From positions 1 through 6,597 of the IMG/VR virus record IMGVR_UViG_3300029071_000005: a DNA stretch of 6,597 bases; one strand, written 5' to 3'. This stretch comes from a virus. Its lineage: Duplodnaviria; Heunggongvirae; Uroviricota; Caudoviricetes. Each line of letters starts with the position of its first letter. Within the stretch, counting starts at the first letter, position 1. This document shows positions 2,403 through 6,597 of this stretch, one piece after another. The notes below the pieces were generated by a model, which worked only from the letters and a program-made list of their open reading frames with translations, ran no database searches and was not told where the DNA came from. The position numbers were made by a program, and so were the translations under genes.

Positions 2403-2623
2403 GCTGCACCTCCGAGATGCTTCATGTTTTTTCTGGAGCGAAAGGCTATAAGCGGCATACTGACGCGGTAATTACGGCCCAGCGGTTCACAAACCACCTT
2501 CTGACATTCACGGTCAACCAGGCTAACACGTAGAACATGCCCTGCAGGCGTGGTGTACCACTGACCCGGACGAGGACAACGGAAAGTCTGATTGGTAAAA
2601 CGTTTGAAAATATTCCGGATCAT
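2399..2623 (-). CDS. Hypothetical small protein (74 aa), possibly Cys-containing zinc-ribbon-like
   Basis: Track ORF 2399..2623. ATGA overlaps at both ends (2620-2623 and 2399-2402) link it to Rha and the replication gene. Contains the paired cysteines FRCPRPG...DRECQKVVCE. No family recognised. Confidence 0.5.
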   Translation of the reverse strand: MIRNIFKRFTNQTFRCPRPGQWYTTPAGHVLRVSLVDRECQKVVCEPLGRNYRVSMPLIAFRSRKNMKHLGGAA

Positions 2624-3165
2624 TTGCGCCCCCTTACCTCTGAAGGGTTCAGCGACAAATTTATGAGGCAGGCCAGCGCCGAAGCATCATTAATATAGTC
2701 ATATAAGCTAACAGCCAGCGGAGATTCGGCTTTTGCCAACATAGGATAAAGCTGCTGCAGCCAGACCTGATGAATTGATGAAATGTAGGAACAGAGAACG
2801 CTGGCGTTATGTGCAACGTCGCTCGGTACAGCGGGCCTTGAAAGCTGTTTCTCCATCTGGTTAAAGGCATTGATGTATGCCTCTTTGAACTGGGCAGCAC
2901 GTTTACCCGTGAAACCCATAGCAAGAAACGCAAAGCCGTCGCGGGTTATTTGATAGCAAGGTAGTTTGCGGCCTGTGCAATCGGTGTAATCACTCACCGA
3001 AAAATTGCGGGCAGTGAATGATGCGGAGCATTCAAGCGTGCGGATCTTTTTCAGTACATCGTCATGACGTTTGGAGAAGAAGTTGGCAACAGCCAGGGAT
3101 GAAGTAACAGCCTGACCATCAACGATGGCAATTTCAGGTTGAGTGAGGGTTGGGATCGTAGCCAT
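2620..3165 (-). CDS. Rha-family phage regulatory protein (181 aa as called)
   Basis: C-terminal 181 codons of track ORF 2620..3771. MATIPTLTQPEIAIVDGQAVTSSLAVANFFSKRHDDVLKKIRTLE...GRKLPCYQITRDGFAFLAMGFTGKRAAQFKEAYINAFNQME is a classic Rha N-terminal domain. Start chosen at ATG 3165-3163, preceded by AAAGAGG (GAGG 9 nt upstream). The frame stays open a further 202 codons upstream, so the true start is uncertain. Confidence 0.8.
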   Translation of the reverse strand: MATIPTLTQPEIAIVDGQAVTSSLAVANFFSKRHDDVLKKIRTLECSASFTARNFSVSDYTDCTGRKLPCYQITRDGFAFLAMGFTGKRAAQFKEAYINAFNQMEKQLSRPAVPSDVAHNASVLCSYISSIHQVWLQQLYPMLAKAESPLAVSLYDYINDASALACLINLSLNPSEVRGRK

Positions 3166-3333
3166 GATGGCAGCCTCTTTGGTGATTTTAAATAACTCAC
3201 CACCAAGGCTTTCCACGACCTTATTGGTGGTGAGACGTACAGGGGTGGAAATACCGGTCACCAAAGAACCCGGCCCAACCGAAGTTGGCCCTGCACGCCC
3301 CACCATAATTTGGGCGTAATGCTGCTCATGACA

Positions 3334-3357
3334 CAAAAAAACCGCAAGAGCGCGGTT
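3334..3357 (-). terminator. Candidate intrinsic terminator on the minus strand
   Basis: Minus-strand RNA AACCGC-GCUCUU-GCGGUU followed by UUUUUGUG (plus-strand A7 run at 3335-3341, arms 3340-3345 and 3352-3357). 6-bp stem, 6-nt loop, U-tract. Lies between the 59-aa ORF stop and the Rha start. Confidence 0.45.
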
Positions 3358-3442
3358 GTGCGCTTTGGTGAATTCCGGGTTTCCACGCCCGGCACCCGCT
3401 TTATAAGGTGCCTGAACAGTGTAACGTCCCGGAATGGCAGAA

Positions 3443-3622
3443 TCAATGTGCTGGTGGTCCTTCACACTCAACAAAATCACGCCTGAATTTCCACAAAGGA
3501 CTAAAGCACTCATGCGGGTAGTCTTTGCGAAGATAGATAACGCGCTGTGTTTCTGGCTCCCAACGAATAACATGAACATAAAGTCCTCTTCCGTCACGAA
3601 ACCAGCGGTTAAGTTCCTGCAC
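3443..3622 (-). CDS. Hypothetical 59-aa protein absent from the ORF track (GTG start, just under the 60-aa cutoff)
   Basis: Reading minus strand from GTG 3622-3620 to TGA 3445-3443 gives VQELNRWFRDGRGLYVHVIRWEPETQRVIYLRKDYPHECFSPLWKFRRDFVECEGPPAH, checked codon by codon. G-rich SD-like GGGGGG lies 6 nt upstream. It is out of frame with, and entirely inside, the N-terminal part of the 383-aa track ORF. No family recognised with confidence. Confidence 0.4.
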   Translation of the reverse strand: MQELNRWFRDGRGLYVHVIRWEPETQRVIYLRKDYPHECFSPLWKFRRDFVECEGPPAH

Positions 3623-3652
3623 AACTCGCCCCCCACAGTCAGGTAAAGTTCT

Positions 3653-3668
3653 CTGTGGTTACTTACAG
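3653..3668. promoter_or_regulatory. LexA (SOS) box core match CTGT-N8-ACAG
   Basis: CTGTGGTTACTTACAG at 3653-3668. It is the only exact CTGT-N8-ACAG I found in the window. Lies 31 bp upstream (minus strand) of the 59-aa ORF start, in the gap after the CII-like gene. The spacer is less AT-rich than strong chromosomal SOS boxes. Confidence 0.4.
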
Positions 3669-3767
3669 CCAGGTGATTTGGTAATCTGCATTCATGCCGT
3701 AACAACAGGTGTTCAGCCACGCGGACCACCAACTGTTGCGACCAACGGTTATTTGCCGTTAAACTGT

Positions 3768-4385
3768 TCATGCGTTAGTTTCTCCACAACCAGAAGCAAT
3801 CGACGCCACGACGCCCGGAGCTGCACACTCGCGGGCGTTACTCTTTTCCGGTGCACAAAAAACACGAAATAACAGTGTTAAATGCTCCTGCCACTTCGCC
3901 ATTACTTGGTAGCTGTTCTCTTCGATTTGCTCACGCTCAGCCTGGTCAATAACTCCATCAGCAGTTGCCTTGCGTAAGTACTGGGAATGCTTGCCAATCC
4001 ATTCTATTGACTCCATCAGCCGCTGATTAATGTCACCATTGCCAATGTCATCAATGACCACCAGCGGCACAAACACCCCATTACTACGACGGGCTATTGC
4101 ATCTGTTACATGCCTGGTACCACTGGCATCCTGTAAAACCATGGCCCACTCAAGTGGAAAAATTTGATCCCCACCGCTACGCAGTCTGTTATGCAATTGA
4201 TCTTTTGCTGGGGTGATATCATCAGATTTATACAAACCAAGAATTTCTGCTGCTTCCTCATAGCCATGAGGTAAATCAGCAATCGTTCTTCGTATTGCTG
4301 CCACCAGCCATGCTGGTTGTTTATCAACTTTCCATTCAGGTTCTTTACCCACGGCTATCTCCTTAAAACTGTGGTTACTTTCCAT
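3768..4385 (-). CDS. CII-like / YdaT-like early regulatory protein (205 aa)
   Basis: Track ORF 3768..4385. Second gene after cro-like, the position of cII. AAEILGLYKSDDITPAKDQLHNRLRSGGDQIFPLEWAMVL loosely parallels lambda CII AEAVGVDKSQISRWKRDWIPKFSMLLAVLEWGVV as I recall it. Start ATG 4385 overlaps the last 11 nt of the cro-like gene. Confidence 0.55.
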   Translation of the reverse strand: MESNHSFKEIAVGKEPEWKVDKQPAWLVAAIRRTIADLPHGYEEAAEILGLYKSDDITPAKDQLHNRLRSGGDQIFPLEWAMVLQDASGTRHVTDAIARRSNGVFVPLVVIDDIGNGDINQRLMESIEWIGKHSQYLRKATADGVIDQAEREQIEENSYQVMAKWQEHLTLLFRVFCAPEKSNARECAAPGVVASIASGCGETNA

Positions 4386-4647: not shown

Positions 4648-4731
4648 AAAGTTGTTGATAACTTCGATTATACAACCACAACAACTTTTATCACAACTTT
4701 TAGATGTTGGAAAGCTAAAACATAAAGTTGT
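4648..4731. promoter_or_regulatory. OR-like operator region: four copies of the 8-9 bp motif AAAGTTGT/ACAACTTT, including an imperfect 16-bp palindrome
   Basis: AAAGTTGT at 4648-4655 and 4724-4731; ACAACTTTT at 4681-4689 and 4693-4701; palindrome AAGTTgttgatAACTT at 4649-4664. Sits between the divergent repressor and cro-like genes. Confidence 0.65.
4667..4696 (-). promoter_or_regulatory. Candidate pR-like sigma70 promoter for the cro-like operon
   Basis: On the minus strand: -35 TTGTGA (plus 4691-4696), 18-bp spacer, -10 TATAAT (plus 4667-4672), about 40 nt upstream of the cro-like ATG. Overlaps the operator repeats. Confidence 0.55.
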
Positions 4732-4760: not shown

Positions 4761-5447
4761 GTGAAAACATTGGCAGAAAGACTAAAAAGCGAAAGAGAAA
4801 AAGCAGGAATGAGTCAGGCGCAACTAGCTGAAAAAATTGGGCTTTCACAACAATCCGTAGCGAAAATCGAGAATGGAGAAACTCAACAGCCTCGGAAAAT
4901 TAAAGAGATTGCTAAAGTGTTAGGGGTTTCTCAAAAGTGGTTGCAATTGGGCATTGAGGATAACGCGTCTTTCCCAGACCTTGTTGTAAAGGAGGCTGAA
5001 AGTACAGCATTAGATCCTGACATTTTTGCAAACATTCCAGTCCTAGATGTCGAGTTATCAGCGGGTAATGGATGTTTGGCTGAAATAGTTGAATCAACTG
5101 TAGACTGGTTCCCGCTAAGAAGGATTGATTTAAGAAAAGCTGGTGTATGTGTCTCCAATGCAAAGATCGTAAAAATTTGGGGCAATAGTTTACTACCTGT
5201 ACTTAACAATGGAGATTTTGTTGCTGTTGATGTTTCCCAAACGGTTCCTATTCGTGATGGGGATCTTTATGCCATACGTGATGGCGTATTACTTAGAGTT
5301 AAAATATTGATCAATTTACCTGACGGTGGTCTGATTCTAAGAAGTTTCAATAAAGATGAGTATCCAGATGAAATACTCACCTTCGAAGATAGGCGTTCCA
5401 GAATTCACGTTATAGGTAGAGTATTCTGGTCATCGCGCACTTGGTAA
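4761..5447 (+). CDS. CI-like prophage repressor: N-terminal XRE-type HTH plus C-terminal S24 (LexA-like) autopeptidase domain
   Basis: Track ORF 4761..5447, GTG start 10 nt after GAGGGGG. HTH is MSQAQLAEKIGLSQQSVAKIENG. S24 signatures: candidate Ala-Gly cleavage site in LSAGNG, Ser motif WGNSLLPVLNNGDFVAVD (compare LexA GMSM...GDLLAV), Lys motif LLRVKIL (compare LexA VTVKRLK). Confidence 0.85.
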   Translation: MKTLAERLKSEREKAGMSQAQLAEKIGLSQQSVAKIENGETQQPRKIKEIAKVLGVSQKWLQLGIEDNASFPDLVVKEAESTALDPDIFANIPVLDVELSAGNGCLAEIVESTVDWFPLRRIDLRKAGVCVSNAKIVKIWGNSLLPVLNNGDFVAVDVSQTVPIRDGDLYAIRDGVLLRVKILINLPDGGLILRSFNKDEYPDEILTFEDRRSRIHVIGRVFWSSRTW

Positions 5448-5579: not shown

Positions 5580-5640
5580 ACAACCTCCTTTTTTGATAAC
5601 CCTTGCCCTCATTTCACATCCGTCAAAACCACATAAAGTT

Positions 5641-5690
5641 GTTGACAACAACCAAAACAACAACTAGATTACAACTTAAAGATGTTGCAG
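5641..5690. promoter_or_regulatory. OL-like operator block homologous to the OR-like region
   Basis: CATAAAGTTGT at 5641-5651 is identical to 4721-4731. TAAAGTTGTTGAcAAC resembles 4647-4663 (TAAAGTTGTTGAtAAC). ACAACT-type half-sites recur at 5667-5672 and 5680-5685. About 55-60 bp of shared sequence with indels relative to 4645-4710. Confidence 0.6.
5651..5679 (+). promoter_or_regulatory. Candidate pL-like sigma70 promoter, plus strand
   Basis: -35 TTGACA (5651-5656, perfect), 17-bp spacer, -10 TAGATT (5674-5679), embedded in the operator-like repeats. Would transcribe towards boxA and the ORF at 5830. Confidence 0.55.
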
Positions 5691-5761
5691 TAACGAACAG
5701 GTAGGACGCCCACGAAGTAGCCGCCCGGGGCATATGAAGTCCAGGATGATTCGTTAGCAAC

Positions 5762-5784
5762 AAAAAAGCGCCCTACAGGACGCT
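5762..5784 (-). terminator. Candidate intrinsic terminator on the minus strand
   Basis: Minus-strand RNA AGCGUCC-UGUA-GGGCGCU (7-bp stem with one G-U pair, tetraloop) followed by UUUUUU (plus-strand A6 at 5762-5767). The same sequence folds less well on the plus strand (C-A mismatch). Confidence 0.45.
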
Positions 5785-5786
5785 TA

Positions 5787-5798
5787 GCTCTTTAACAA
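5787..5798 (+). promoter_or_regulatory. boxA-like antitermination element
   Basis: GCTCTTTAACAA at 5787-5798 matches the rrn/lambdoid boxA consensus (TGCTCTTTAACAA) at 12 of 13 positions. About 100 nt downstream of the candidate pL-like start and 32 nt upstream of the ATG at 5830. No clean boxB-type hairpin seen 3' of it. Confidence 0.5.
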
Positions 5799-5829
5799 TC
5801 TTGGTATCCCCGTAACAAAAGAGGGTTCT

Positions 5830-6123
5830 ATGGTCATATTCTGTGCTTACGTTCATCCTAATGGATTTTTTATCAGTACCAACCAACAAGACGAATTCTG
5901 GATTCTACTTAGTAAGCAGGTCGGATGGGGACGATTCTGTCTAATCCGACCAGAATCAGAATTTACAGAGAATGGAGGGCTTTTTGAATTACGTGAAATA
6001 CGTCCGGCAGATGGTCAAGCCCCTGACCAAGTAATCGAATCGTCAGCTGTTTTATGGCGTCGGCAGGAAGCGTTCGAAGCTGAGAGAGTAATTTCTTCTT
6101 ATCTTCAGTCGTGGCAGAAGTAG
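5830..6123 (+). CDS. Hypothetical protein (97 aa) in the position of a first pL-operon gene; function unknown
   Basis: Track ORF 5830..6123. Good RBS (AGAGGG, 4 nt before the ATG). Downstream of the plus-strand promoter and boxA. No arginine-rich N-terminus like lambda N. Its 3' 160 bp overlaps the convergent minus-strand ORF 5963..6466, so one of the two calls may be wrong. Confidence 0.35.
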   Translation: MVIFCAYVHPNGFFISTNQQDEFWILLSKQVGWGRFCLIRPESEFTENGGLFELREIRPADGQAPDQVIESSAVLWRRQEAFEAERVISSYLQSWQK

Positions 6124-6466
6124 AACTATTGATGATACGTTCAAGTTCACAGAGAGTCTCATCATGCAATCTTATTGTCATAATCCCAAGAATAGCTTTA
6201 AGACCTCCATCATCACGAATGAAATCAATTCCATCTTTAGTAATTCTTAATTCAGGAATATTTATATTTATGCCATCCAAGTAATAATCAAGAGCATTCT
6301 TAATCAAGCCATGTTCTTCGAGATAAATTAAGTTCGAAATTAGGACATTATCATCTCCAAATGCGTCACGAACAGACTGCAACGCATCATCAGAAATTTC
6401 ATAAGGATGAGCATCATACAGTATTTGTAACAACTGCCTTTGTGCACTTCTATCAAATTTGTCCAT
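5963..6466 (-). CDS. Hypothetical protein (167 aa) encoded mostly in a visibly AT-rich segment
   Basis: Track ORF 5963..6466. 114 stop-free codons in AT-rich DNA (about 6124-6466) are unlikely by chance. Sequence is protein-like, with a possible winged-helix segment (LISNLIYLEEHGLIK). GGTGA lies 9 nt upstream of the ATG. No family recognised. Confidence 0.6.
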   Translation of the reverse strand: MDKFDRSAQRQLLQILYDAHPYEISDDALQSVRDAFGDDNVLISNLIYLEEHGLIKNALDYYLDGININIPELRITKDGIDFIRDDGGLKAILGIMTIRLHDETLCELERIINSSTSATTEDKKKLLSQLRTLPADAIKQLTIRLLGQGLDHLPDVFHVIQKALHSL

Positions 6467-6597
6467 CTTAAATAATCACCATGTTATTGGGGGTATCAAG
6501 ATTAACCGAATCCTTGTTGTTGGGGAATAACCAGGTCCACCTCGCCTGATGTGGCTAAAAGCAGGCACATAACAGCTAAGTATTTTCAACCAGAGAG

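What the first reader, a model, noticed from the sequence alone, without database searches (positions are those of the whole stretch)
5757..5830. Near-consensus boxA next to a convergent terminator, without an obvious boxB
GCTCTTTAACAA (5787-5798) matches the rrn-type boxA at 12/13 positions, which is very unlikely by chance, and lies where a nutL site would be expected (after the pL-like promoter, before the first plus-strand ORF). The expected boxB hairpin 3' of boxA is not apparent; the only good hairpin is immediately 5' of boxA and folds better as a minus-strand terminator (7-bp stem, UGUA loop, U6). This could be an antitermination site used by a non-N system, or a nut site with an atypical boxB.
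Basis: partly seen in the sequence, partly recalled or inferred. Interest (0 to 1): 0.5.

Follow-up and report, generated by a model that had tools for sequence, protein, structure and literature searches.

The report
Ribosomal-type boxA in prophage early leader
A prophage of the SfV/KplE1 group carries, just after its repressor-controlled early promoter, an exact copy of the short RNA signal that E. coli uses to keep ribosomal RNA transcription from stopping early; it probably lets early phage transcription cross a backwards-facing inserted gene, but this has not been tested experimentally.

Summary
GCTCTTTAACAA sits at 5787-5798 (+), one base after a hairpin (5766-5785) that is a good intrinsic terminator only on the minus strand. 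The site lies 117 nt downstream of a repressor-controlled pL-type promoter in an SfV/SfIV/KplE1-like prophage.

It is not a lambda-type nut site. There is no boxB 3' of it, no N gene, and no second boxA on the pR side.

It fits the ribosomal (rrn) type. It matches the published functional consensus GYTCTTTAANA. Its 3' extension (AATCTGG) matches 16S-23S spacer boxA sites. A hairpin sits directly 5' of it, as in both rrn sites.

The hairpin+boxA unit recurs in prophages of at least 10 named Enterobacterales genera, behind many different immunity regions. In nearly all cases (11 of 13 species-level loci, all 15 IMG/VR loci) it stands in front of a reverse-oriented gene that pL transcripts must cross.

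Best reading (about 0.55): an N-independent Nus-factor loading site that makes pL transcription Rho-resistant across about 1.1 kb of mostly untranslated RNA. The hairpin stops the inserted gene's transcript before pL and cI. All function is inferred.

Separately, a covarying structured RNA with no Rfam match occupies 5689-5757.

The parts
5636..5677 (+). pL-type early-left promoter (TTGACA 5642-5647, 17-nt spacer, TAGATT 5665-5670) with flanking operator 7-mers AAGTTGT (5636) and ACAACTT (5671)
   Evidence: Promoter scan, 10/12 match. The operator 7-mer is found only here and at the pR/pRM region. The position downstream of the cI-like repressor gene 4761-5447 (HTH_3 + Peptidase_S24) matches SfV/SfIV annotation.
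5689..5757 (+). Conserved structured leader RNA at the 5' end of the pL transcript. This is context, not part of boxA. An outer stem and an inner stem both covary around an invariant core AGGCAGGACGCCCACGAAGUAGCC.
   Evidence: Present behind many different promoter/operator types (about 40 by my visual count). Covariation score 0.58 against 0.17 in shuffles, 0 of 500 shuffles as high. RNAalifold gives 9 of 13 pairs with compensatory changes. The covariance model R1 scores 83.9 bits here. No Rfam match.
5760..5785 (-). Intrinsic terminator of the reverse-oriented gene: stem-loop 5785-5766 followed by U6 (5765-5760). It is weak when read on the + strand.
   Evidence: Terminator scan. Free energy -11.5 (minus) versus -7.5 (plus) kcal/mol. 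In relatives the A/U-tract and the stem are kept. The loops vary and read on the minus strand as UUCG, UACG, UGCG, UGUA and others.
5787..5798 (+). boxA, GCTCTTTAACAA. The rrn-like similarity extends to about 5804 (AATCTTGG; most relatives have AATCTGGAT).
   Evidence: Exact match. Fits GYTCTTTAANA (PMC5725501). Compared with the rrnB leader and spacer and with rrn spacers of other gamma-proteobacteria. Conserved in 19 of 19 hairpin-bearing variants.
5830..6123 (+). 97-aa open reading frame starting 31 nt after boxA. Doubtful as a gene.
   Evidence: No Pfam, PHROG, PADLOC or NCBIfam family. Not called by PGAP in two genomes carrying the same cassette. It overlaps the reverse gene by 160 nt.
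5963..6466 (-). Reverse-oriented inserted gene (moron), 167 aa, function unknown
   Evidence: phrog_3983, E = 2.6e-59. Annotated as WP_000357060.1 in E. coli genomes. No Pfam, PADLOC, NCBIfam or PDB relative.
6159..6278 (+). C-rich, G-poor stretch of the pL-sense RNA, antisense to the inserted gene. Candidate Rho loading region.
   Evidence: C/G ratio 2.4-2.9 in 80-nt windows. GC skew -0.33 to -0.35. Inference only.
6499..6597 (+). Right-hand conserved junction block shared with SfIV, SfV, mEp460 and others. The variable cassette lies between boxA and this block.
   Evidence: Megablast hits to query positions 1138-1198 (window 6537-6597) in many phages. Read directly in SfV and SfIV.

Best explanation
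The 12-mer is an rrn-type, N-independent boxA written into the leader of the repressor-controlled early-left (pL) transcript. After induction, the nascent GCUCUUUAACAA RNA would bind host NusB-NusE(S10). With NusG, NusA and SuhB this would convert RNA polymerase into a Rho-resistant form, as at rRNA operons and CRISPR arrays. That would let pL transcripts cross about 1.1 kb of mostly untranslated RNA and reach the early-left genes (yfdP through xis/torI). The untranslated stretch is the antisense of the reverse-oriented 167-aa gene plus a GC-rich non-coding stretch. The hairpin immediately 5' of boxA is the unidirectional terminator of that reverse gene. It is strong in the minus transcript, so the inserted gene's transcription does not run into pL and the convergent cI. 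It is weakened by a C.A mismatch in the plus transcript, so pL transcripts pass. Hairpin plus boxA form a conserved roughly 45-nt unit. This unit marks the upstream boundary of a slot where reverse-oriented cassettes are exchanged. Shown: the sequence anatomy, the conservation and the association with reverse genes. Inferred: Nus factor binding, Rho resistance, and the need for it.
For: The motif is an exact boxA and fits the experimentally derived consensus GYTCTTTAANA.

Its 3' extension matches the E. coli rrnB 16S-23S spacer (GCTCTTTAAAAATCTGGAT). It is identical over about 19 nt to rrn spacers of Xenorhabdus, Vibrio and Veronia.

Both rrnB sites also have a hairpin 1-3 nt upstream of boxA.

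All 19 distinct hairpin variants in held loci carry boxA. The only boxA substitution seen (C10A, 2 variants) falls on the N of the consensus. The loop, the spacer base and the downstream sequence all vary.

The unit occurs behind at least 7 pL/operator types in IMG/VR loci. It also occurs in prophages of E. coli, Shigella, Edwardsiella, Symbiopectobacterium, Buttiauxella, Sodalis, Kosakonia, Mangrovibacter, Citrobacter and Izhakiella. It is present in 854 of 5426 complete E. coli genomes.

It is always in the pL sense. All 15 distinct boxA+ IMG/VR loci have a reverse ORF directly after it, against 32 of 83 boxA- loci. So do 11 of 13 species-level loci.

In L070 and in Edwardsiella (L235), boxA precedes a reverse gene without the terminator hairpin. 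BoxA is therefore not merely part of the terminator.

The distance to the first forward ORF of at least 80 aa is longer in boxA+ loci: median 849 versus 424 nt, p = 0.004, on non-independent data.

No strong + strand intrinsic terminator lies in the pL path. The antisense RNA has a C-rich, G-poor stretch.

There is precedent for boxA-only protection of long untranslated RNA: CRISPR arrays (PMC7665894). Viral contigs also show a consensus promoter plus boxA 13 nt before arrays of 23-27 tRNA genes.
Against: There are no functional data of any kind.

About a third to three quarters of related prophages lack the unit: 64% of E. coli genomes with the leader RNA carry it, about a quarter of IMG/VR loci. 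These include SfV and SfII, and 32 of 83 boxA-less loci have reverse genes in the same place. So boxA is not required for the arrangement.

The association with reverse genes is partly built in, because the adjacent hairpin is those genes' terminator.

The unit sits at recombination junctions. Part of its conservation could therefore reflect recent horizontal spread rather than selection on boxA. Stems and boxA are nearly invariant, so there is no covariation to read.

The upstream structured leader RNA may itself be an antiterminator, which would make boxA redundant.

In SfIV-type cassettes a real small + gene (phrog_1744) starts 46 nt after boxA. This geometry also fits suhB-like negative control.
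Confidence: 0.55

Rival explanations
1. It is a lambda-type nutL. BoxA would cooperate with an unrecognised boxB (the 5' hairpin or the structured leader RNA) and an unrecognised phage N-like protein.
For: The position just downstream of pL is that of nutL. A conserved structured RNA lies 30 nt upstream and a hairpin lies 1 nt upstream. Classic boxA-then-hairpin sites with the same boxA core exist in other viral contigs (L026, L091, L022).
Against: No hairpin lies 3' of boxA, and the downstream sequence is not conserved. There is no second boxA at up to 2 mismatches in 14 kb covering the pR operon. No N gene is annotated, and no N-like family is hit. The SfIV genome paper reports only Q. The leader RNA and boxA occur independently of each other. 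The 5' hairpin has minus-strand terminator features. YfdP/YfdQ, the first conserved early-left genes, are present in only 32 of 92 leader-bearing loci.
Confidence: 0.05
2. It is a negative, suhB-type boxA. Nus factors bound near the ribosome-binding site would repress translation of the small + strand ORF that follows and so promote Rho termination. This would damp pL expression rather than extend it.
For: BoxA lies 31 nt before the ATG at 5830. It lies 46 nt before the phrog_1744 ORF in SfIV-type cassettes. This is inside the 50-nt range used to find suhB-like targets (PMC5725501).
Against: The window's 97-aa ORF has no family and is not annotated. In many variants (L027, L049, L053, L059, L096, L231, L235 and others) boxA is followed directly by the 3' end of a reverse gene, with no + ORF. 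A brake placed before the integration/excision genes has no obvious rationale.
Confidence: 0.08
3. The conserved sequence works on the minus strand. UUGUUAAAGAGC next to the terminator hairpin and U-tail would be the 3' end of the inserted gene's mRNA. It could be a 3'UTR-derived small RNA whose seed is complementary to boxA of host rrn transcripts or of superinfecting N-dependent phages.
For: In most loci the complement of boxA lies between the stop codon of the reverse gene and its terminator. This is the usual layout of 3'UTR-derived small RNAs (established knowledge). The extended similarity to rrn is equally an extended complementarity.
Against: L070 and L235 keep boxA but have no terminator hairpin. 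The putative seed abuts the hairpin with no spacer. No data show such an RNA. Any convergent transcript pair is complementary here regardless.
Confidence: 0.07
4. It has no function of its own. The rrn-like sequence would be a passenger in a recombination linker that flanks exchangeable cassettes, spread recently among mosaic phages.
For: Similarity between relatives breaks 2-3, 10 or 20 nt after boxA. The same cassette, including hairpin and boxA, is 99.8% identical behind a different immunity region. Many relatives do without the unit.
Against: The unit is present in at least 10 named genera with diverged flanks, loops and spacer base. In 19 of 19 variants the 12-mer changes only at the consensus's degenerate position. 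The sequence equals the highest-affinity rrn form rather than a decayed copy. It is also kept without the hairpin.
Confidence: 0.12

Closest known systems
rrn operon boxA (leader and 16S-23S spacer) and the NusB/NusE/NusG/NusA/SuhB ribosomal antitermination complex
   Same: Same 12-mer as the rrnB leader. Same 3' extension as spacer sites (AATCTGGA). A hairpin lies 1-3 nt upstream, in the boxB position. It sits near a promoter and is followed by long untranslated RNA.
   Different: It lies in a phage early operon under repressor control. There is no boxC-like GU-rich element. The upstream hairpin is a terminator for the opposite strand. The downstream RNA is antisense to a gene, not a structural RNA.
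BoxA upstream of CRISPR arrays (Salmonella and many other genera; Stringer et al. 2020, PMC7665894)
   Same: A stand-alone boxA with no phage protein, placed between a promoter and a long untranslated transcript that Rho would otherwise truncate.
   Different: The CRISPR case is shown experimentally; this one is not. Here the untranslated RNA arises from a reverse-oriented inserted gene.
Lambda nutL/nutR (boxA + boxB + N)
   Same: The position just downstream of pL, and use of a boxA.
   Different: No boxB 3' of boxA, no N, no nutR. The boxA is the rrn consensus rather than lambda's CGCTCTTA.
suhB 5'UTR boxA (Baniulyte et al. 2017, PMC5725501)
   Same: Fits the same consensus. It lies within 50 nt of a possible start codon in some variants.
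   Different: suhB boxA promotes Rho termination through translational repression. Here a downstream + gene is often absent.
HK022 put RNAs (protein-independent antiterminator RNAs at the start of pL and pR transcripts)
   Same: Relevant to the neighbouring leader RNA at 5689-5757, not to boxA. Both are conserved structured RNAs at the very 5' end of a pL transcript in phages without N.
   Different: No sequence or model similarity: model R1 does not hit HK022. The architecture differs, with a closing stem plus inner hairpins against two side-by-side stems. There is a single copy, with none on the pR side.

Membership tests
rrn-type BoxA (Nus factor loading site, N-independent) | RNA-sense match to the functional consensus GYTCTTTAANA | tested here: met
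   GCTCTTTAACAA at 5787-5798 (+). Consensus taken from PMC5725501.
rrn-type BoxA (Nus factor loading site, N-independent) | Lies on the transcribed strand, downstream of a promoter | tested here: met
   117 nt after the -10 of a 10/12 sigma-70 promoter flanked by operator repeats. Sequence-level evidence only; no transcript data.
rrn-type BoxA (Nus factor loading site, N-independent) | Conserved in relatives beyond its flanks | tested here: met
   19 of 19 hairpin-bearing variants. The only change falls at the N position. Loop, spacer base and downstream sequence vary. Caveat: several loci were fetched with boxA itself as the probe.
rrn-type BoxA (Nus factor loading site, N-independent) | Followed by long untranslated, Rho-susceptible RNA | tested here: inconclusive
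   About 1.1 kb to the first conserved forward gene, much of it antisense to a gene, with a C/G ratio up to 2.9. A possible 97-aa ORF, and real small ORFs in some relatives, could be translated.
rrn-type BoxA (Nus factor loading site, N-independent) | Binds NusB-NusE and recruits SuhB; mutation causes Rho-dependent loss of downstream transcription | not testable with these tools
   Needs EMSA, ChIP and reporter assays.
Lambdoid nut site | boxB hairpin a few nucleotides 3' of boxA | tested here: not met
   No stable or conserved hairpin 3' of boxA.
Lambdoid nut site | N-family antiterminator gene downstream of nutL | tested here: not met
   No such gene is annotated in 14 kb of the same prophage. 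There are no family hits for the local ORFs. An undetectably divergent N cannot be excluded.
Lambdoid nut site | Second site (nutR) downstream of pR/cro | tested here: not met
   No boxA with up to 2 mismatches elsewhere in the window or in the early operons of L005; the only other 2-mismatch match lies about 6.8 kb downstream in dsdA, outside the prophage.
Intrinsic (Rho-independent) terminator, minus strand | GC-rich stem-loop followed directly by a U-tract, downstream of a gene | tested here: met
   8-bp stem, UGUA loop, U6. Free energy -11.5 kcal/mol. In relatives it lies 20-240 nt after reverse-gene stop codons. Termination activity was not tested.
suhB-type negative BoxA | boxA within about 50 nt upstream of the start of a genuine gene whose translation it represses | tested here: inconclusive
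   The ATG at 5830 is 31 nt away, but that ORF has no support. SfIV-type relatives have a real ORF 46 nt away. Many relatives have none.
HK022 put antiterminator RNA (considered for the neighbouring leader RNA) | Sequence/structure similarity to putL/putR, and paired sites after pL and pR | tested here: not met
   Model R1 finds nothing in HK022 at E up to 1. There is a single copy in 14 kb. Functional analogy was not tested.

The most novel reading that the evidence does not exclude
The prophage family may run early antitermination with no phage protein, using two cis RNA modules. The first is the covarying leader RNA at the 5' end of every pL transcript (5689-5757), acting as a new put-like polymerase-modifying RNA. 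The second is an optional rrn-mimic cassette: a hairpin in the boxB position plus boxA. That cassette would act as a bifunctional insulator, terminating the lysogen-expressed reverse gene on one strand and loading host Nus factors on the other. It would thereby license a slot where reverse-oriented accessory genes can be inserted into an early operon without polarity.
Probability: 0.15. Interest if true: 0.8.

Novelty: new member of a known kind. Interest (0 to 1): 0.5.

Why it matters
BoxA-only antitermination has been shown for rRNA operons and CRISPR arrays. In temperate phages, boxA is known as part of N-dependent nut sites. A consensus rrn-type boxA in the early leader of a very common N-less prophage group (SfV/SfIV/KplE1-like) would show that phages also borrow the host ribosomal antitermination system directly. 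The unit is present in 854 of 5426 complete E. coli genomes. It would also give a concrete, testable answer to two questions. How do these prophages express excision and early-left genes across backwards-facing accessory genes? How can such genes be inserted in an early operon without polar effects? Rho is already known to silence prophage genes, so a built-in anti-Rho signal bears on prophage induction and maintenance.

Tried and rejected
1. HK022 put. I reconstructed putL from the genome and from the numbering in PMC9378689. Only short shared words (ACGAAC, CAGGAUGA) appeared. Model R1 does not hit HK022. Homology rejected.

2. Rfam. Nothing on boxA, the hairpin or the leader RNA at E up to 10. 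The weak Phe_leader hit on the minus strand (E = 0.89) is treated as noise.

3. Function of the cassette genes. Pfam, PADLOC, NCBIfam and PDB gave nothing. PHROGs gave only families of unknown function.

4. A protein partner for the leader RNA. YfdP, YfdQ and YfdR are present in only 32-45 of 92 leader-bearing loci.

5. Coding test of the 97-aa + ORF by comparison with a 93%-identity hit. The cassette turned out to be 99.8% identical, so the comparison is uninformative.

6. The fold in which boxA pairs with the first bases of the transcript. Those bases are the operator half-site of this immunity type only, so it is not conserved.

7. Papers that could not be read: King 2011 on put-like RNAs, Menouni 2013 on Rho and KplE1, and Allison 2002 on SfV.

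8. The + strand hairpin plus UCUUU as a terminator for pL. It is weak (-7.5 kcal/mol with a C.A mismatch) and has no proper U-tract.

Full report
**Setting**

The window is the immunity and early region of a temperate phage of the SfV/SfIV/KplE1 (CPS-53) group. A cI-like repressor (HTH_3 + Peptidase_S24) is encoded at 4761-5447 on the + strand. A cro-like gene and the replication-side genes run leftwards on the minus strand.

An almost identical prophage sits next to dsdC in E. coli NZ_OW967966. There the early-left operon continues into yfdP, yfdQ, yfdR, yfdT and torI.

Downstream of the repressor gene is a 10/12 sigma-70 promoter on the + strand, TTGACA-17-TAGATT at 5642-5670. The 7-mer AAGTTGT/ACAACTT occurs six times in the window. 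All six lie around this promoter or in the divergent promoter region at 4649-4731. The promoter is therefore the pL equivalent, under the same repressor as pR.

**The observation**

GCTCTTTAACAA is at 5787-5798 (+), 117 nt after the -10. It is the only site in the window with up to two mismatches. At up to one mismatch, shuffles give 0.07 matches on average.

The E. coli rrnB leader, read directly, has TGCTCTTTAACAAT.

The hairpin at 5766-5785 is terminator-like only on the minus strand: 8 pairs, UGUA loop, U6. It folds at -11.5 kcal/mol on the minus strand and -7.5 on the plus strand, where the U-G pair becomes a C.A mismatch. No convincing hairpin follows boxA.

**What surrounds it**

Comparison with SfV and SfIV and with hundreds of other loci shows a modular leader, in this order:

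- The pL transcript begins with a roughly 69-nt conserved block (window 5689-5757).
- Next, in some phages, comes the unit A5-8 + hairpin + boxA.
- Next comes a variable cassette.
- Last comes a conserved right-hand block (window from about 6499, and 6537-6597 in the widest set) that leads into the early-left genes.

In the window the cassette is a 167-aa gene on the minus strand (6466 to 5963). It belongs to phrog_3983, of unknown function, and NCBI annotates it as WP_000357060.1. SfIV has a different reverse gene (phrog_5286) and a small forward gene (phrog_1744).

It has no family support, is not annotated, and overlaps the reverse gene by 160 nt.

**The hairpin is the reverse gene's terminator**

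Across 19 distinct variants of the unit in held loci, plus 12 hairpin-bearing loci from a one-genome-per-species scan, the A-tract (a U-tract on the minus strand) and the stem GCGCCC/GGACGC are kept while the loop varies.

- Read on the minus strand, the loops include UUCG, UACG and UGCG. These are the extra-stable UNCG type common in terminators (my own knowledge).
- The one imperfect stem position is G-U on the minus strand and C.A on the plus strand in nearly all variants.
- Reverse-gene stop codons lie 20-240 nt from the unit.

This is a unidirectional terminator. It stops the inserted gene's transcript before it reaches pL and the convergent cI gene, and it hinders pL transcripts little.

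**BoxA is not a lambda-type nut site**

- Nothing conserved or hairpin-like lies 3' of it. Similarity between relatives ends 2-3, 10 or 20 nt after the 12-mer.
- No second boxA with up to two mismatches lies elsewhere in the prophage sequence examined, including the pR operon; the one other 2-mismatch match in the 14 kb falls in the host gene dsdA.
- No N-like gene is annotated or detectable.
- The SfIV genome paper lists only a Q antiterminator (PMC3851460).

**BoxA is of the ribosomal type**

- It fits GYTCTTTAANA, the consensus derived from rrn and suhB sites and from mutational data (PMC5725501).
- The common form of the unit reads GCTCTTTAACAATCTGGAT. The window has a one-base insertion, CTTGG.
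- The rrnB 16S-23S spacer reads TGCTCTTTAAAAATCTGGATC. The spacers of Xenorhabdus, Vibrio, Veronia and others read CTTTGCTCTTTAACAATCTGGAA. The resemblance therefore extends about seven bases past the classical 12-mer.
- In both rrnB sites a hairpin ends 1-3 nt before boxA, as it does here.
- In 19 of 19 hairpin-bearing variants the 12-mer is intact. The exception is C10A in two variants, which gives the E. coli spacer form. This falls on the consensus's N position.
- The base before boxA is A, C, T or absent.

**Distribution**

The leader block is in 1339 of 5426 complete E. coli genomes. In 854 of them the match runs through boxA.

In IMG/VR loci fetched with a probe from the leader block, independent of boxA, about a quarter carry the unit. 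It stands behind at least seven different promoter/operator types.

The species-level scan finds it in prophages of E. coli, Shigella, Edwardsiella, two Symbiopectobacterium species, Buttiauxella, Sodalis, two Kosakonia species, Mangrovibacter, Citrobacter, Izhakiella and an unnamed enterobacterium.

It also occurs without the leader block, for example in Klebsiella phage Kp4882-1 and six other loci. The two modules are therefore independent. SfV and SfII lack the unit altogether.

**Association with reverse genes**

- All 15 distinct boxA-bearing IMG/VR loci have a minus-strand ORF directly after boxA, against 32 of 83 loci without boxA.
- 11 of 13 species-level prophage loci do as well.
- The distance from the leader to the first forward ORF of at least 80 aa has a median of 849 nt with boxA and 424 nt without (p = 0.004). 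The loci are not phylogenetically independent.
- Part of this association is built in, because the hairpin belongs to the reverse gene.
- In L070 and in Edwardsiella (L235), however, boxA precedes a reverse gene with no hairpin at all. BoxA is therefore not just terminator context.

**Mechanism proposed**

After induction, pL transcripts contain GCUCUUUAACAA about 110 nt from their start. NusB-S10 would bind it and, with NusG, NusA and SuhB, form the rrn-type complex that excludes Rho. This rests on established knowledge of rrn antitermination and on PMC5725501, PMC7665894 and PMC12360218.

That protection would be useful here for three reasons:

- The next roughly 1.1 kb, up to yfdP, is antisense to a gene or is GC-rich non-coding sequence.
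- The antisense RNA has a stretch with a C/G ratio of 2.4-2.9.
- No strong + strand intrinsic terminator lies in the path, so Rho is the expected obstacle.

Precedents exist for boxA acting alone before long untranslated RNA. One is CRISPR arrays. Another appears in the viral contigs fetched here: a consensus promoter followed by boxA 13 nt before arrays of 23-27 tRNA genes.

Every functional step is inference; nothing has been measured. I put this reading at 0.55.

**Rivals**

- A lambda-type nut site with a hidden N: 0.05.
- A suhB-like brake on the following small ORF: 0.08.
- A minus-strand role, such as a 3'UTR small RNA complementary to boxA: 0.07.
- A functionless passenger in a recombination linker: 0.12.

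The last rival draws strength from two facts. The unit sits exactly at mosaic junctions, and the whole cassette is 99.8% identical behind another immunity region. Against it stand the spread over many genera with diverged flanks and the restriction of change to the degenerate position.

**Novelty**

The motif and the machinery are known. The context is a repressor-controlled early operon of an N-less prophage group, fused to a reverse terminator at the edge of a cassette slot. I found no description of this context in the papers I could search. I file it as a new member of a known kind.

**Seen on the way**

The block at 5689-5757 is a structured RNA. Its outer stem (five pairs) and inner stem (five pairs) both change by compensatory substitutions across many immunity types (about 40 by my visual count).

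- The covariation score is 0.58 against 0.17 in shuffles, with 0 of 500 shuffles as high. It drops to 0.12 or less when partners are slid.
- RNAalifold recovers the same stems.
- It has no Rfam match.
- It is not detectably related to HK022 put.
- It is present once per prophage.

Its function is unknown. Its position invites the idea of a cis-acting regulator of pL transcription.

Noticed in passing
window 5689-5757 (+): A roughly 69-nt conserved structured RNA at the 5' end of the pL transcript, found behind many different promoter/operator types (about 40 by my visual count). Two stems have abundant compensatory changes: CCTGG/CCAGG, CCGGT/ACCGG, CCGAC/GTCGG and others, and CGAAC/GTTCG versus GTCATC/GATGAC versus CCACC/GGTGG. 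The core AGGCAGGACGCCCACGAAGUAGCC is invariant. It has no Rfam match, is not hit by or similar to HK022 put, and occurs once per prophage. It may be a new cis-regulatory RNA of early transcription.
   Followed up: partly
window 3223-3310 (-) and 3335-3411 (-): Strong Rfam matches to C4 antisense RNA (83.6 bits) and to isrK (67 bits), with a weak c4-a1b1 target match at 3372-3424. They lie upstream of a Rha/anti-repressor-like ORF inside the long ORF 2620-3771. This looks like a P1/P7-type or Gifsy-type antisense-controlled anti-repressor module in the pR operon.
   Followed up: no
L064 7882-8020 (-), L100 6130-6270 (+), L048 about 3560-3900 (+): In IMG/VR viral contigs, a consensus promoter (TTGACT-17-TATAAT) followed by AGCTCTTTAACAATTTGG lies 13 nt upstream of arrays of 23-27 tRNA genes. 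L048 has a similar promoter+boxA inside a tRNA array. This suggests phages use rrn-type boxA to protect long untranslated tRNA transcripts.
   Followed up: partly
L231 2468-2500 (+); L061; L053; L242. Not in the window.: A second small conserved leader module, AACGTTCCGCYGGCCRGCG..AAGGCA, contains a hairpin with apparent covariation (CGCT/AGCG, CGCC/GGCG, CGTC/GACG). It follows the leader RNA in about half of the IMG/VR loci. In some phages it directly precedes the hairpin+boxA unit.
   Followed up: no
window 6537-6597 and beyond (L005 7850-8240): The conserved right junction block leads into about 350 nt of GC-rich non-coding sequence before yfdP. PGAP calls this sequence a frameshifted hypothetical gene. 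It gives a sub-threshold match to the Salmonella sRNA family STnc100 (35.6 bits, gathering score 47) on the + strand.
   Followed up: no
window 5620-6597 versus L252 (E. coli EP91A): The hairpin+boxA+cassette+right block is 99.8% identical in a prophage with a different pL region, where the upstream gene is a ParA family protein. The recombination junction falls inside the 3' half of the leader RNA, whose inner stem differs by compensatory changes.
   Followed up: partly
window 5830-6123 (+) / 5963-6466 (-); L001 3091-3560; L002 3138-3765: Cassettes in this slot repeatedly show a forward ORF and a reverse ORF that converge and overlap at their 3' ends. The forward partner is a real family in SfIV (phrog_1744) and is annotated in SfV (orf33), but it has no support in the window.
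   Followed up: partly
window 6472-6499 (-): The only promoter-like site for the 167-aa reverse gene (TTGATA-16-GATTAT) ends 5 nt before its ATG. Either the mRNA is leaderless or the real promoter lies in the conserved right block further upstream.
   Followed up: no
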